From the NCBI RefSeq assembly GCF_013167455.1, contig NZ_CP038328.1: a stretch of DNA of 64,000 nucleotides. The stretch is one strand, 5' to 3'. Source of the stretch: Escherichia coli O157:H7. GTDB lineage: Bacteria > Pseudomonadota > Gammaproteobacteria > Enterobacterales > Enterobacteriaceae. Each line of letters starts with the position of its first letter. Positions within the stretch are counted from its first letter, which is position 1. Shown one piece after another: positions 18,001-24,000 of this stretch. The position numbers are program-made.

Positions 18001-21000
18001 TTTCTGGATGAAAAGGAAGGTAACCACACCACGGCATACCGTGATGGTGCGGGGATCTGGACCATCTGCCGTGGTGCCATTCTGGTGGATGGTAAGCCTG
18101 TTATTCCTGGCATGAAGCTGTCAAAGGAAAAATGCGACCGGGTTAATGCCATCGAACGTGACAAGGCGCTGGCATGGGTGGAGAAAAACATCCGGGTGCC
18201 GCTGACCGAACCCCAGAAAGCGGGGATCGCGTCATTCTGTCCGTACAACATTGGCCCCGGTAAGTGCTTCCCGTCGACGTTTTATAAACGAATTAATGCA
18301 GGCGATCGAAAAGGTGCCTGTGAGGCGATTCGCTGGTGGATTAAGGACGGTGGCAGAGACTGCCGTATCCGTTCAAATAATTGCTACGGTCAGGTCTCAC
18401 GGCGTGACCAGGAGAGCGCGCTGGCGTGCTGGGACATCGACAGATAGCAGAATATTTTCCTGAAAAATGACGTTGGCCAACGCGGGTGGATAACACGAAA
18501 TCCTGAAAACTGGTAAAACCTAAGTGAATAAAAGTAAAAACCCCGTTTGTTGGCAGCAAGCGGGGTTTTGTGTTTTCTGACCTTGAGTAAGGCAAGGGAG
18601 AAATTATGGGTAGGGAGGTACTTTCCCTGTGAGGAAGTATAAAAGATTCTTTCTGAGGTTGTCCATTATGAAAGGCATTGAAGTGGAGACGCCAGCCAGT
18701 CTGGATTTAACAAGAGCGGCAGCTTTTGCCATTCGTATTGTGGCCATTGCTGTTCTGGTCTGGGCAATCCGTTGGTGGTGATATGAACCGTGTTCTGTGT
18801 GTGGTTATCATTGTCCTGCTGGTGGCCTGTGGTGCGCTTAGTCTGGGGCTGAATCATTACCGTGATCACGCCATCATCTACAAAGAGCAGCGCGATAAAA
18901 AAGCCAGAGAGCTGGAACAGGCGAATGCCACCATTACTGACATGCAGGTGCGCCAGCGTGATGTTGCTGCGCTCGATGCAAAATACTCGAGGGAATTAGC
19001 CGATGCGAGAGCTGAAAATGAAACTCTGCGTGCTGATGTTGCCGCTGGTCGTAAGCGCCTGCGGATCAACGCCACCTGCCCCGGTACCGTGCGTGAAGCC
19101 ACCGGCACCTCCGGCGTGGATAATGCAACCGGCCCCCGACTGGCAGACACCGCTGAACGGGATTATTTCATCCTCAGAGAACGGCTGATGGCAATGCAGA
19201 AGCAACTGGAAGGAGCACAGGAATATATCCGTACCCAGTGTATACCGTGATGTTTTGTTATGAGGGTGTTACTGGTAACGTTAAGGTAATTTAACAAAGA
19301 GTCAGTTCCGGACTTTATAGTGTGCTCAGTTCATGGCCAAAAACGATTTCTGTGATAAATATTTTGAATATTATTTACAGGTAAATGGAGTGGGGCACAT
19401 GGATAGAAATATTACAATAGAGAATGAAGTATATGCCCGTATTGTATGGGCAGAGAAGGCAAAAACACGGTAATTCCGTGTGTTGCCATGATACCTGATT
19501 GGCAGAATAGTTGTTTGGTTTTGAGTATATAGTCAGCGTTTTTTGTTCAGTAATTGCTCCCTCAAAAAATAATAAAATAAGGTGATTATTTTTGTTTATT
19601 ATTTAGTTTTTTTTGTGTGTTGTTTTATTGTTTTTGCGTGGTTTGTTTTTTATTGTTATTTCATTAAGGGAAGGTAAATTCAGGATGGCAGTCTGTAGAT
19701 AATCGGAGGTCACTTATGCTACATGATCACGTGGCAGAATGTCTGGAGAAAAAAGGACTGTACCGGAGAGCAGCTGAACGATGGGCAAAAGTGATGGTAC
19801 AGCTAAGTGATGACCAGAAAAGAAAAGTGGCGGCACAGAAACGAGCAGAGTGTTTGCGTAAGGCGCGCCGGACTCCGGTTTCACCGGTGAACCTGACCGA
19901 AATAAAACAAGCGGTCAACAGACTACATTCTGAGTTGGGAATGGGATTTGAAGAGCGGCGGGTATTCCGACGATATAAAGGGACAGGAGAACAGAATACG
20001 TCCGGAAACGCGCGGTCAAAAAAATGCTAAAAAATATCTGAGAGCGTTATTGCCTGTTACCATAAGAAAAAGCGACTTTAGTGGTCGCTTTTTGTGTCAT
20101 ATATAAGTCGTTTAAGTAAACCTGTCTGAACAGGTGCTCTGGTCGTGTTTGTCTTTGTTGGGTACAAATTGAGAATATTTTTCATTAATTAATGAACCGC
20201 CCCGGGTTTCCTGGAGAGTGTTTTATCTGTGAACTCAGGCTGCCAGATCATCGTTTCCGATGGAAGCATAATAAGCTTTTTCTGCTTCTGCCGGAGGAGT
20301 ATGGCCCAGCCTTCCCAGCAATCGTCGATTGTTATACCAGTCCACCCACGTTAGTGTGGCCAGTTCCACTTCTGCACGGTTTTTCCAGCTCTTACGGTGT
20401 ATTACCTCCGCTTTGTAAAGACCATTGATGCTCTCAGCCATCGCGTTGTCATACGAGTCGCCTGTACTCCCTGTTGATGCCAGTAATCCGGCTTCTTTTA
20501 GTCGCTCCGTATAGGCCAGTGACACATACTGAGAGCCTTTATCGCTGTGATGGATGGTGCCAGACGGACGACGGGCCCATTTACCCCGGAGAACACCGGC
20601 AAGTCCCATAACCGCCATGAGACGTGCCACTGTACATCTGGCCACCCTGATTCCTTCCCGTAACAACTGACGCCAGACTTTACGCACACCGTACACCTGA
20701 TGATTTTCATCGTATACGCGCTGTATCTCTCTCTTCAGCCAGTCGTCGTGCTGCGCACGGGCACTGCGTTTATCCGGATGATGTCGCTGTTGCTGACAAT
20801 GGTAATACGTTGACGGGGCAATATGCAGTTCGCTGCATACCGGTCCGACCCCGTACTGCTCACGCAGCTTATCCAGCAGTGGCATCATTTTTTCCAGAGG
20901 CGGTCGAACTCCGCCTTCGCAAAATAAGCGGAAGCCTGGCGAAGGATATCGTTACTGCGGCGCAGTTCACGATTTTCACGTTCCAGCTCTTTCAGACGCT

Positions 21001-24000
21001 GACGTTCAGCGCTGGTGAGCCCACCATCACCGCCCCCGGTATCCCGCTCATGCTGGCGAACCCAGACACGCAGAGTCTCCGGCGTACAGCCAATCTTTGG
21101 GGCAATGGAACAAATTGCCGCCCACTGTGAGTCATATTCATCCTGACTTTCCAGAACCATACGAATCGCCCGCTGACGGACTTCGGGGGAAAAACGAGTA
21201 TTTTTAGTCATCCTGTTTACCTCTTTCTCAGGGAGTTTAGTCTCCAGGATTTCCGGGGCGGTTCAATCCGCATATTGATAATATATTGACAGGCATCATT
21301 GCTGTCTGTGAAAAATAAGTCTCTACAAACATATAAGGCCTTTTAGCCAGCGTCTTCTTTCAGGTCAGTCGCTGGCTCTTTTTTTATTATGCTGCCGGTG
21401 CATTTATCTCCAGCACCAGACTTTCTATCTCAACGCCATACGCTGCATTTTTTGTAACATCCGTCAGCGTCAGCGCATTCAGTCCCAGTGTCAGACTGTC
21501 TTTTATAACCTGGAATGCCGGGCCAGCCACTCCATTCAGTTTCGGAGTAACCGTGGCACTGCCGGCGGTGAACACCAGCTCCAGCGTCTGCCAGTCGTTA
21601 CCGTAATCGCCGAACTCCCCCAGCTTCGTGTTTCCGGCTTTCCTGTGATGCATCAGATTCACTCTGCCGTCAGTGGTCTGAGTGAAGTACGACATCAGGA
21701 ACGGATTACCGGTACCCGTCATCGCCACACCATCAGGAACGGGAGCATCCGTATACAGATAAATCCCCAGCCCGAACTGATTGTTGGTCAGTGCGCCTGA
21801 CAGGCGGAACTTACAGTTCAGTCTGCCGCCCTGTGTCAGCAGGGTAATTGCGTCATCCACCGGATGCGTCAGGGACCAGGTTTTATTGCTCTGCCTGGTG
21901 ATCTTAAATACACCATCTGACAACTGAATTCCGCCATCCTTAATGCTCCAGCCCTGCGCAGCAGCCTCTCCGGCTGCCGGCAGCAGGGAGATTGTGCGAA
22001 CGGACGTATCTGCAGACGGACCCGATGGCGTGTTGCCGCCGGGCGAGGGTTTGATTTCCGGTGCCTTACCACTGATGAAGGCGGAGGTGCGCCCGGCTGC
22101 GTTCAGAATAGCGGTTGCCAGACGATCCGGAATAATGCTCCTGCGCGCCCATGAACTGAAATGTGTCGGGCGGTTTGATGATACCTGGTTTCCATTCGTT
22201 CTCGATGCCGCACCGTAATATCCTGATGCCGGAATATCCGGATCTTCTGCCGGCGCGTTAGTGGCGGTATTGACGCCGTTACCGTCTGTCATGAAGGGCA
22301 CAAAATAAACGCCCTCACTCTCCCTGTTTTTATACCCGCCGTACACGGTGTCGTACTGGGTAGCGTATGTATTTTTCCAGTAATACGTCGTATCACCACA
22401 AATCCACGGCACATCTGCAGCACTGCCACCATGGCACTGCGCGTTAAACACGGAGAGGTCAGCACGAAACTGTGTCAGCATGGCTGTAAACAGCGCAGGT
22501 TGCTGTGCGTGGGTGGCGGCGCTCATGTCAAACTCTCCCTGCATCCAGCACACCGCCAGCAACACATTTTTCGGGTTCTTCTGTAATGCAGCTTTAGTGC
22601 GCGCAATCAGGTCCTGATATAACGGTTTACCCACACCCCAGCGTGCCGAATCCTGGCTGGCCCCCGTGTCCGCACTGAATGTCCCCTCAGCGCCCTGGGT
22701 GAATGCAGAACCACCACGACAGCATGGTACCAGCAGGATCCCCGCGTTATTCGGGATATACGGAAGCAGTTTTTTGGCAATATGTAAGCCCTGGCCGACA
22801 CAGCCGTACTGCCCTTTGCTCAGGTCTGCCTTCGGATGATTCAGCGTACTCATATCCTGCACATCATGCAGGCAGTGGTCGGCCGGAATGATGTCGTTAT
22901 ACGTACAACTCTCTCCACCCGGAGTTACCGTGCTGCGGCGCGCCAGCTGTTTAATGCGCGGATCCGGAGCATCGTAAGAATCCGGTAACGGAAGCCCTTC
23001 ACCGTAGGCCATGCCGTTGGACTGTCCGGCAAGCACAACCACGTAGAACCAGTCCGGCTTAGATGAAGGGCCGACCTGTGGATCTCCTTCAATAGCCACC
23101 GCCTGCATCAGTGTGTACGGCGTAATGGCAACCGGTCCGCCGTATGGCTGCCAGCCCTCTTTCAGTTTGTGTGTCAGCTTTTCCGCAAGGTCTGACGGCG
23201 ACGCCGCCCTGACAACATCATAGTGTTTAAATGCCATGAATCCTCCCGGCCGGGATAATATTGTGAGTAAAATGAGGAGCGGGCTGAAGTCCGGAAGTTA
23301 CAGGACAATGGCAGAAGAGAGACAACAGCCCGCAATACGAAAAAGGCCGCGCTATTGCGCAGAGTGATTACTGTCGGATATTATTCGCCAGCTGAAATAT
23401 TACTTCACGTTTTGTTGTTTATTCCTTGCCGCCCGCGTCTCCCTGCGCGGGCTTTTTTTGTCCATAAGAAAGCCCCTCCGGAGAGGGGCTGGAGAGTGGC
23501 GCTATGTGCCATTGCATGGTGCCGGGTGCCTCCCGGTGAATTCAGTACCAGCACCTGAATCCGCGATTATCCCATATACCTACTCGCTGATTGCCCCTCC
23601 GCACAGGGGGATTCACCATGCCAGTTTCTTTTAACAAACTCCCCGCAAACCAGACAACAGTCAACCGCCTGAATTGTGAGACATTTAAAAAAAAGGCCCG
23701 CAAAAGCGAGCCAGGGAAAATAAGTGTGGCGCGTTGTACTGGATTCGAACCAGTGACCGATTGCTTAGAAGGCAATTGCTCTGTCCGGCTGAGCTAACAA
23801 CGCAGGATACAGATAATGGACCGCCTTCGGGGACCCGAACTCCGCGCAACCAGCTTCGAAAGCTGGCGCTCTTTCCTGATGAGCTAATGGCGGTATGTGA
23901 TGGTGGCCCTTGCTGGATTTGAACCAGCGACCTGGCGATTATGAGTCGCTCGCTCTCACCACTGAGCTAAAGGGCTGGGTCAAAAAATAATAATCAGATG

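What the first reader, a model, noticed from the sequence alone, without database searches (positions are those of the whole stretch)
20193..21265. IS629-like copy with an in-frame internal deletion of about 79 codons in orfB
Both terminal inverted repeats and orfA are intact, but OrfB passes directly from ...GLAGVLRGK to WARRPSG..., skipping the region that carries the first two catalytic acidic residues in IS3-family transposases. The copy would be non-autonomous yet mobilisable in trans, and its ends can still serve as recombination substrates.
Basis: partly seen in the sequence, partly recalled or inferred. Interest (0 to 1): 0.4.

Follow-up and report, generated by a model that had tools for sequence, protein, structure and literature searches.

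The report
Internally deleted IS629 copy in prophage Sp4
This is an ordinary, already annotated, defective copy of the insertion sequence IS629 in an E. coli O157:H7 prophage: it has lost 237 bp of its transposase gene, was inherited by about a third of O157:H7 genomes, and has occasionally been copied into other IS629 sites.

Summary
Window 20193-21265 (minus strand) is a 1073-bp IS629. It matches full-length 1310-bp IS629 at every base except a clean 237-bp (79-codon, in-frame) deletion of IS positions 687-923. Both inverted repeats, orfA and the frameshift pseudoknot are intact.

Only the first catalytic Asp (OrfB D136) is lost. D195 and E231 are kept, so "first two acidic residues" is wrong.

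The locus is prophage Sp4/CP-933M of E. coli O157:H7, and RefSeq Sakai already annotates the copy as "IS3 partial". About 180 complete genomes carry a full-length IS629 at the same site, and 101 carry the deletion junction. The deletion therefore arose in place and marks a lineage.

The deleted allele also sits in abgT and in a prophage xis gene. Both are old full-length insertion sites, and the xis copy keeps the resident copy's SNP, so these two are gene conversion, not transposition. One site next to ureD (strains STEC799 and NJS001; own TAT duplication; empty in 570 genomes) is a candidate trans-mobilised insertion.

The Sp4 copy has no target duplication and sits at the breakpoint of a 3.5-kb inversion of the lysis cassette and pchA.

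Low interest; already known in kind.

The parts
20193..21265 (-). IS629 copy with a 237-bp internal deletion (1073 bp; IS629 positions 1-686 joined to 924-1310)
   Evidence: It is identical to full-length IS629 apart from the deletion. RefSeq Sakai annotates it as two adjacent 'IS1203 Family: IS3 partial' repeat regions.
21239..21265 (-). Left inverted repeat (IRL), TGAACCGCCCCGGAAATCCTGGAGACT
   Evidence: Read directly from the sequence. IRL and IRR agree at 23 of 27 positions. The IR-core pattern was found by search.
20193..20219 (+). Right inverted repeat (IRR), TGAACCGCCCCGGGTTTCCTGGAGAGT as read on the + strand
20885..21211 (-). orfA, intact, 108 aa (HTH_Tnp_1)
   Evidence: ORF list. Pfam PF01527, E = 2.4e-12.
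20814..20930 (-). ALIL pseudoknot (programmed -1 frameshift signal between orfA and orfB), intact
   Evidence: Rfam RF01497, 121.5 bits against a gathering score of 50, full model length 1-117.
20235..20888 (-). orfB with the in-frame deletion: 217 aa instead of 296. It lacks residues 104-182, including catalytic D136. It keeps HTH_21, D195, E231 and K238.
20579..20580 (.). Deletion junction (IS position 686 | 924). It is blunt, with 0 bp of microhomology.
   Evidence: Prefix 686 + suffix 387 = 1073 with overlap 0. A 54-bp junction probe hits 101 complete genomes.
16699..20192 (.). 3.5-kb segment (holin, lysozyme, Rz, pchA, 3' fragment of ylcI) inverted relative to collinear relatives. Its right end abuts the IRR of the IS.
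   Evidence: Alignment to O157:H- 493/89 (L017) and O55:H7 DEC5B (L016).
21266..23237 (-). Flank on the IRL side: 121-bp spacer and the 616-aa SASA-family esterase gene (ECs_1088-like). There is no target-site duplication with the other flank (GAT versus TTA in IS orientation).

Best explanation
This is a dead copy of IS629 (IS3 family) in lambdoid prophage Sp4/CP-933M of E. coli O157:H7.

Origin. A full-length IS629 was already at this site, at one breakpoint of a 3.5-kb inversion of the lysis cassette and pchA, and without a target duplication. In one O157:H7 sub-lineage that includes Sakai, EDL933, Xuzhou21 and 86-24, it then lost 237 bp (IS positions 687-923) in a single blunt deletion.

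Effect on the protein. The loss is in frame and removes OrfB residues 104-182. These include the first Asp of the DDE triad (D136). By alignment to retroviral integrase they also include the first strands of the RNase-H-like core. The OrfAB made by this copy cannot catalyse transposition (inferred). Both IRs, orfA and the frameshift signal are intact, so the copy still makes OrfA and still offers ends that a transposase from the genome's other IS629 copies could use.

Spread. It was mainly inherited vertically. Its deletion allele has also been pasted into other, older IS629 insertions by gene conversion between copies (abgT, xis). Probably once it was inserted anew by transposase supplied in trans (the ureD-adjacent site in STEC799 and NJS001).
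For: Shown by tool results:
- Exact 237-bp deletion with 0 other differences.
- IRs, orfA and pseudoknot intact.
- D136 lost, D195 and E231 kept.
- Full-length IS629 at the same site: identical sequence and both flanks in TR01; a probe for the full-length allele plus the pchA-side flank is covered at >=80% in 180 genomes.
- Deletion junction in 101 genomes, median one place per genome.
- 257 genomes share both Sp4 flanks.
- abgT: the deleted allele is in FRIK1989 and in draft contig L004, at the site and AAA duplication that hold a full-length copy in all 24 other listed genomes; 93 genomes have IS629 at this site. The resident copy has A at IS position 1297, whereas the deleted copy has C like the Sp4 copy.
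- xis: the deleted allele is at the site and CTAC duplication that hold a full-length copy in four O157:H7 complete genomes. It keeps the resident A1297 in two assemblies, so it is a mosaic.
- ureD site: the deleted copy has its own TAT duplication. The site is empty in 570 genomes and is never occupied by a full-length copy at that base.

From the literature:
- IS629 OrfAB supplied in trans from a plasmid acts on IS629 ends in the excision assay (bioRxiv 10.1101/2023.06.07.543989).

Inferred:
- Catalytic inactivity, and the order of events.
Against: - No activity was measured. Loss of function rests on homology to DDE enzymes, through a weak PDB alignment (E = 0.05) plus motif spacing.
- Two of the extra loci (L004, L005/L026) and L009 come from draft or IMG assemblies, where repeats can be mis-threaded. 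Only FRIK1989, STEC799 and NJS001 are complete genomes.
- The ureD insertion could equally be a full-length insertion that was later converted. Only two genomes carry it.
- I did not build a phylogeny, so a single origin of the deletion at Sp4 is inferred from identical junctions, not shown.
Confidence: 0.88

Rival explanations
1. One reading: the deleted copy is a non-autonomous element that is actually mobilised in trans, and the extra copies elsewhere are its transposition products.
For: - The ends are intact.
- Host genomes hold many IS629 matching places; the listed genomes with the deleted allele show 14-21.
- Transposase works in trans in excision assays.
- The STEC799 and NJS001 insertion has its own TAT duplication at a site that is empty in 570 genomes.
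- The neighbouring IS insertions there are different events: 1 bp offset with an ATA duplication and a 95%-identical IS, and 89 bp away with a GTA duplication.
Against: - The abgT and xis copies occupy exactly the site, orientation and duplication of older full-length insertions.
- The xis copy is a mosaic that keeps the resident A1297. Transposition of the Sp4 copy (C1297) does not explain that.
- The junction was not found in GTDB species representatives or JGI metagenomes. In PLSDB the only hit is a 286-kb EDL933 record.
- Only 5 extra places occur across 101 genomes.
- From my own knowledge: IS3-family transposases (IS911) strongly prefer to act in cis.
Confidence: 0.45
2. The same 237-bp deletion arises repeatedly and independently in different IS629 copies through a sequence-directed mechanism.
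For: - The identical junction is seen at five different loci.
- The xis copy carries the resident SNP, as an in-situ deletion would.
Against: - The junction is blunt, with 0 bp of microhomology. Just inside each breakpoint there is only an imperfect GGYCCGT.
- The abgT deleted copy differs from the resident full-length copy at position 1297 and matches the Sp4 copy.
- Of the 106 places with the junction, every context I inspected outside FRIK1989, STEC799 and NJS001 is the single Sp4 locus, although these genomes hold many full-length IS629 places.
Confidence: 0.05
3. The short OrfB is the normal form for this IS subtype, or the deletion is an assembly or annotation artefact.
For: None found.
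Against: - A full-length copy identical outside the deletion occupies the same site in TR01, and the full-length allele next to the pchA-side flank is found in 180 genomes.
- The Pfam rve match drops from 96.9 to 29.2 bits, below the 32.6 cut-off.
- The junction is present in 101 independently assembled complete genomes.
Confidence: 0.01
4. The deleted copy is kept because it does something. It still makes OrfA and a catalytically dead OrfAB that retains its DNA-binding and multimerisation parts. Together these would damp IS629 activity by binding the ends or poisoning transposase multimers.
For: - orfA, the frameshift signal and the N-terminal HTH_21 region of OrfB are intact, and the deletion is in frame.
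- In the rows I saw, several genomes with the full-length Sp4 allele have 36-40 IS629 places, against 14-21 in the listed genomes with the deleted allele. This is confounded by lineage.
Against: - No test of selection or of expression was made.
- An in-frame outcome has a 1-in-3 chance.
- The copy-number contrast is anecdotal and not corrected for phylogeny.
- Vertical inheritance of a neutral remnant explains the distribution.
Confidence: 0.08

Closest known systems
IS629 (IS3 family, IS3 group; called IS1203-family by NCBI PGAP) of E. coli O157:H7
   Same: - 100% nucleotide identity over all 1073 retained bases to full-length copies.
- Same IRs, the same orfA/orfB arrangement with a -1 frameshift, and the same ALIL pseudoknot.
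- Other copies make 3-4 bp duplications.
   Different: - It lacks IS positions 687-923 and therefore catalytic D136.
- It has no target duplication at this locus.
Other internally deleted IS629 copies, e.g. the O55:H7 CB9615 chromosomal copy with an 86-bp internal deletion (Rump et al. 2011, PMC3271280)
   Same: It is an IS629 with an internal deletion, retained ends and a fixed chromosomal location.
   Different: - The deletion differs (237 bp, in frame), as do the locus and the lineage.
- That paper lists the Sp4 sites (IS.1, IS.2) as 'ND' and does not describe this deletion.
Non-autonomous deletion derivatives of transposons (MITE-like elements; the Ds-type relationship to Ac), mobilised by a transposase from intact copies
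   Same: - The ends are intact, the transposase is defective, and intact partners are present in the same genome.
- There is one insertion with its own target duplication.
   Different: - There is no amplification: a median of one copy per genome.
- Most extra copies are explained by gene conversion rather than transposition.
Gene conversion (concerted evolution) among dispersed IS copies
   Same: - The deletion appears inside older insertions at unchanged sites.
- Donor or resident SNP patterns show tracts of different length.
   Different: The marker transferred here is a 237-bp deletion rather than point differences. The evidence rests on few genomes.

Membership tests
IS629 / IS3 family insertion sequence | Terminal imperfect inverted repeats beginning 5'-TG and ending CA-3' | tested here: met
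   IRL and IRR are both TGAACCGCCCCGG..., agreeing at 23 of 27 positions. The core occurs only at the two ends.
IS629 / IS3 family insertion sequence | Two overlapping reading frames (orfA, orfB in -1 phase) with a programmed frameshift signal | tested here: met
   orfA is at 20885-21211 and orfB at 20235-20888, overlapping at ATGA. The ALIL pseudoknot (RF01497) scores 121.5 bits.
IS629 / IS3 family insertion sequence | Near-identity to reference copies of the same IS | tested here: met
   There are 0 mismatches over 1073 bp to full-length copies annotated IS629/IS1203. It was not compared directly with the ISfinder reference entry.
IS629 / IS3 family insertion sequence | Complete DD(35)E catalytic domain in OrfB | tested here: not met
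   D136 is deleted, while D195, E231 and K238 are kept. The Pfam rve score is 29.2 bits, below the cut-off of 32.6, against 96.9 bits for the full-length protein. It is a defective member by descent, not a functional one.
IS629 / IS3 family insertion sequence | 3-4 bp direct target duplication flanking the element | tested here: not met
   The flanks at this locus are GAT and TTA. The ancestral sequence shows a rearranged site. The full-length allele at the same site has the same flanks.
Non-autonomous element mobilised in trans | Intact ends together with a transposase predicted to be inactive | tested here: met
   Inactivity is inferred, not measured.
Non-autonomous element mobilised in trans | Autonomous partner copies in the same genome | tested here: met
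   There is none in the 64-kb window. Genomes with this copy have many IS629 matching places, e.g. EDL933 21 and Sakai 19.
Non-autonomous element mobilised in trans | New insertions of the deleted element, with their own target duplication, at sites never occupied by a full-length copy | tested here: inconclusive
   One site qualifies: ureD-adjacent, TAT duplication, in STEC799 and NJS001, empty in 570 genomes. Two other sites fail: abgT and xis. One is ambiguous: L009.
Non-autonomous element mobilised in trans | Transposition or circle formation when transposase is supplied from another copy | not testable with these tools
   This needs an experiment. The literature shows only that IS629 OrfAB works in trans in excision assays.
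Gene conversion between IS copies | The variant appears in a pre-existing insertion with unchanged site, orientation and duplication | tested here: met
   abgT: AAA duplication, 93 genomes with IS629 at the site, full-length in all 24 other listed genomes. xis: CTAC duplication, full-length in four O157:H7 complete genomes.
Gene conversion between IS copies | Mosaic of donor and recipient markers within the converted copy | tested here: met
   The xis deleted copy keeps the resident A1297 (L005 and L026). The abgT deleted copy has the donor C1297 where the resident copy has A. There is a single marker, and the xis evidence comes from draft or IMG assemblies only.

The most novel reading that the evidence does not exclude
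The 237-bp-deleted IS629 is a naturally occurring non-autonomous derivative with two ways of spreading. It is mobilised in trans despite the cis preference of IS3-family transposases (the ureD-adjacent insertion). Its deletion also spreads horizontally among resident IS629 copies by gene conversion, progressively disabling them. Meanwhile its OrfA and its dead OrfAB damp IS629 activity in the Sakai/EDL933 lineage.
Probability: 0.1. Interest if true: 0.45.

Novelty: already known. Interest (0 to 1): 0.2.

Why it matters
It matters little for biology at large, because internally deleted IS copies are commonplace and this one is already flagged as partial in the Sakai reference annotation.

It has three practical uses:
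- The 237-bp deletion splits O157:H7 genomes that carry IS629 at the Sp4 site into two groups, about 100 deleted and about 180 full-length. It is a cheap lineage marker for IS-based typing.
- The deleted allele turning up inside older IS629 insertions is a clean natural example of gene conversion between dispersed IS copies. It is also a warning for IS typing and assembly pipelines that a "new" copy of a variant need not be a transposition.
- The ureD-adjacent insertion gives a concrete case for testing whether IS629 transposase works in trans in nature.

Tried and rejected
- I first read the deleted allele at abgT, xis and an ISEc8-internal site, each with a target duplication, as proof of trans-mobilisation. 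I rejected this for abgT and xis after finding full-length IS629 at exactly those sites in other genomes and the SNP mosaic.
- The ureD site first looked the same, because several genomes gave a 1610-bp span. Base-level comparison showed that those are different insertions, 89 bp away or 1 bp offset.
- L009 (deleted copy, right flank in ISEc8) could not be resolved. Its 36-bp left flank matches neither ISEc8 nor any complete genome.
- The exact junction was absent from GTDB species representatives and from JGI metagenomes. In PLSDB it hit only a 286-kb EDL933 record. IMG/VR gave only the Sp4 and xis contexts.
- phmmer against the PDB at E <= 0.01 found nothing. The DDE assignment uses a weak hit at E = 0.05.
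- I could not locate the second or third junction-bearing places in STEC799 and in the two multi-copy genomes that were never listed.
- I looked for a mechanism for the blunt deletion and found no microhomology.
- I could not decide between a two-IS recombination followed by excision and a transposase-mediated intramolecular event for the inversion.
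Full report
**1. What is at the coordinates.**
- Window 20193-21265 is bounded by the inverted-repeat core TGAACCGCCCCGG. This core occurs nowhere else in the 64-kb window (2 matches against 0.05 expected by chance).
- On the minus strand the element carries orfA (108 aa, 20885-21211), overlapping at ATGA with a 217-aa orfB (20235-20888).
- Pfam finds HTH_Tnp_1 in OrfA. In OrfB it finds HTH_21 and rve_3, but only a sub-threshold fragment of the integrase core (rve 29.2 bits, cut-off 32.6, profile positions 60-101).
- The Rfam ALIL frameshift pseudoknot is complete (121.5 bits).

**2. The deletion.**
- The sequence matches thousands of E. coli IS629/IS1203 copies.
- Against a full-length 1310-bp copy with a normal 3-bp TAC duplication (NZ_CP018250.1), the first 686 bases and the last 387 bases are identical and sum to 1073 with no overlap.
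- The only difference is therefore a blunt 237-bp deletion of IS positions 687-923 with no microhomology.
- The deletion is in frame (79 codons).

**3. Which catalytic residues are lost.**
- Full-length OrfB aligns weakly (E = 0.05) but in full motif register to the avian sarcoma virus integrase core. WVAD136FTY aligns with WQTD64FT, HHSD195KGSQY with IKTD121NGSCF, and AMAE231SING with AMVE157RAN.
- D195 and E231 are 36 residues apart, and K238 lies 7 residues after E231. From established knowledge, this is the IS3-family DD(35)E-K signature.
- The deletion removes residues 104-182, so only D136 is lost.
- By homology to retroviral integrases, the region carrying the first strands of the RNase-H-like core is also lost (inference).
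The conclusion that the encoded transposase is inactive still follows, but it is an inference and not a measurement.

**4. Where this is.**
- The window is E. coli O157:H7 prophage Sp4 (Sakai) / CP-933M (EDL933), in reverse orientation.
- RefSeq Sakai annotates the copy as two abutting 'IS1203 Family: IS3 partial' repeat regions, with ECs_1089 and ECs_1090 named 'IS629 transposase'. They lie between the SASA-family esterase gene ECs_1088 and pchA.
- The defect is therefore already recorded in the reference annotation.
- Rump et al. 2011 list the Sp4 IS629 sites as not determined. The only internal deletion they describe is an 86-bp one in O55:H7 (PMC3271280).
- I found no paper that describes this 237-bp deletion.

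**5. Both alleles exist at the same site.**
- A 2073-bp probe (both flanks plus the IS) is covered at 80% or more in 257 complete genomes.
- A 54-bp probe that can only seed across the deletion junction hits 101 genomes at 106 places, with a median of one per genome.
- A probe specific for the full-length allele joined to the pchA-side flank is covered in 180 genomes, including TW14359, EC4115, SS17 and SS52.
- In strain TR01 the full-length copy at this site is identical to the reference full-length IS and has the same flanks as the window copy.
- The deletion therefore arose in place from a full-length copy. It now marks the lineage that includes Sakai, EDL933, Xuzhou21 and 86-24.

**6. Has the deleted copy moved?** Looking up the exact 217-aa protein showed the deleted element in other contexts.

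| Locus | Genomes | Target duplication | Same site in other genomes | Reading |
|---|---|---|---|---|
| abgT | L004 (draft), FRIK1989 (complete) | AAA | Full-length IS629 in all 24 other listed genomes, including EDL933 and 86-24; 93 genomes have IS629 here | Gene conversion |
| xis of the mlrA-site prophage | L005 (draft), L026 (IMG/VR) | CTAC | Full-length IS629 in four O157:H7 complete genomes | Gene conversion |
| Next to ISEc8 | L009 (draft) | GGA | Right junction shared with full-length copies; left flank matches nothing | Ambiguous |
| ureD-adjacent | STEC799, NJS001 (both complete) | TAT | Empty in 570 genomes | Candidate trans-insertion |

- A single SNP in IRR (IS position 1297) is informative. 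The Sp4 copies, both deleted and full-length, have C. The resident full-length copies at abgT and xis have A.
- The abgT deleted copy has C. The xis deleted copy keeps A, in two assemblies.
- A deletion sitting in an old insertion, with donor or resident markers on its flank, is the signature of gene conversion between IS copies with tracts of different length. It is not the signature of transposition.

**7. The one candidate for trans-mobilisation.**
- In complete genomes STEC799 and NJS001 the deleted element lies between ureD and a phosphoethanolamine transferase gene. It has 0 and 1 differences from the window copy.
- Other genomes at first seemed to hold a full-length copy there. Base-level comparison shows different events:
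  - 2014C-3061 and relatives have an IS629 89 bp away with a GTA duplication, and their TAT site is intact.
  - O103 ML775 has a 95%-identical IS, 1 bp offset, with an ATA duplication.
- The site is empty in 570 genomes and interrupted only in these three.
- This is what a new insertion of the deleted element by transposase from another copy would look like. IS629 OrfAB is known to act in trans in excision assays.
- A full-length insertion that was later converted, with no sampled intermediate, cannot be excluded. I put trans-mobilisation at about 45%.

**8. The context of the Sp4 copy.**
- The copy has no target duplication (GAT and TTA).
- In collinear relatives the order is esterase, holin, lysozyme, Rz, pchA, ylcI, nu1 on one strand. 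Examples are O55:H7 DEC5B and O157:H- 493/89.
- 465 genomes show that order at the pchA/nu1 junction.
- In the window, 16699-20192 (holin to a 3' fragment of ylcI) is inverted.
  - IRL abuts the esterase side, at the point where the relatives continue into the holin region.
  - IRR abuts the interior of ylcI.
  - The other junction (16698|16699) lacks 107 bp of ylcI.
  - 3-5 bp (AAA, possibly also CA) are missing at the esterase/holin point.
- The full-length allele shares all of this, so the rearrangement predates the deletion.
- Two models fit, and I cannot choose between them:
  - recombination between two inverted IS629 copies, followed by loss of one copy together with adjacent DNA;
  - a transposase-mediated intramolecular event.
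- An IS629-like element does sit between nu1 and ylcI in some chicken isolates. That region therefore does receive such insertions.

**9. Verdict.**
- The finding is real and precisely described.
- The element is a known kind of thing, already annotated as partial in the best-studied genome that carries it.
- The extra results are modest: a lineage split, gene conversion into other IS629 copies, one candidate trans-insertion, and an inversion breakpoint.

Noticed in passing
window 16699-20192 (breakpoints 16698|16699 and 20192|20193): A 3.5-kb segment carrying holin, lysozyme, Rz, pchA and a ylcI fragment is inverted relative to collinear prophages (O157:H- 493/89, O55:H7 DEC5B). 107 bp of ylcI are lost at one breakpoint and the IS629 sits at the other. 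The inversion puts the lysis genes and pchA on the opposite strand to the rest of the late operon. The prophage-defect survey of Asadulghani et al. 2009 scores Sp4 lysis as '+', and I saw no mention of this inversion in the passages I retrieved.
   Followed up: yes
window 13569-16006: An ISEc8 (IS66 family) insertion lies in the nu1 terminase small-subunit gene. The flanks overlap by 8 bp in the uninterrupted relative L017 (3999-4006), which indicates an 8-bp target duplication. The nu1 disruption is already reported (PMC2669165).
   Followed up: partly
L011-L014 (ureD / phosphoethanolamine transferase intergenic region of STEC799, 2014C-3061, NJS001, ML775): Three independent IS629-type insertions lie within 90 bp (duplications ATA, TAT and GTA), two of them only 1 bp apart. 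This is a local insertion hot spot.
   Followed up: partly
IS629 position 1297 (window 20206, in IRR): A C/A polymorphism inside the right inverted repeat distinguishes IS629 copies. It is C at Sp4 and at the dtpD-side copy, and A at abgT and xis. It is useful for tracing exchange between copies.
   Followed up: partly
L009:1-36: The left flank of a deleted IS629 in draft contig AVQV01000012.1 matches neither ISEc8 (the source of the right flank) nor any complete E. coli genome. It is either a recombinant junction between IS copies or a contig-end artefact.
   Followed up: partly
L018:1043-2353 (O80:H26 EC-107 and several chicken isolates): An IS629-like element, 93-96% identical to the O157 copy, is inserted between nu1 and ylcI of an Sp4-like prophage. 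This is about 150 bp from the point that corresponds to the Sp4 inversion breakpoint.
   Followed up: no
window 23727-23976 (minus strand): A three-tRNA cluster (CAT anticodon, annotated ileZ in Sakai; Arg-TCG; Arg-TCT) lies upstream of the esterase gene. This is the arrangement typical of Stx-phage late regions, here without stx.
   Followed up: no
(IS629 places per genome): Several cattle-hide O157:H7 strains with the full-length Sp4 allele have 36-40 IS629 places, against 14-21 in the listed strains with the deleted allele. This is probably a lineage effect and was not corrected for phylogeny.
   Followed up: no
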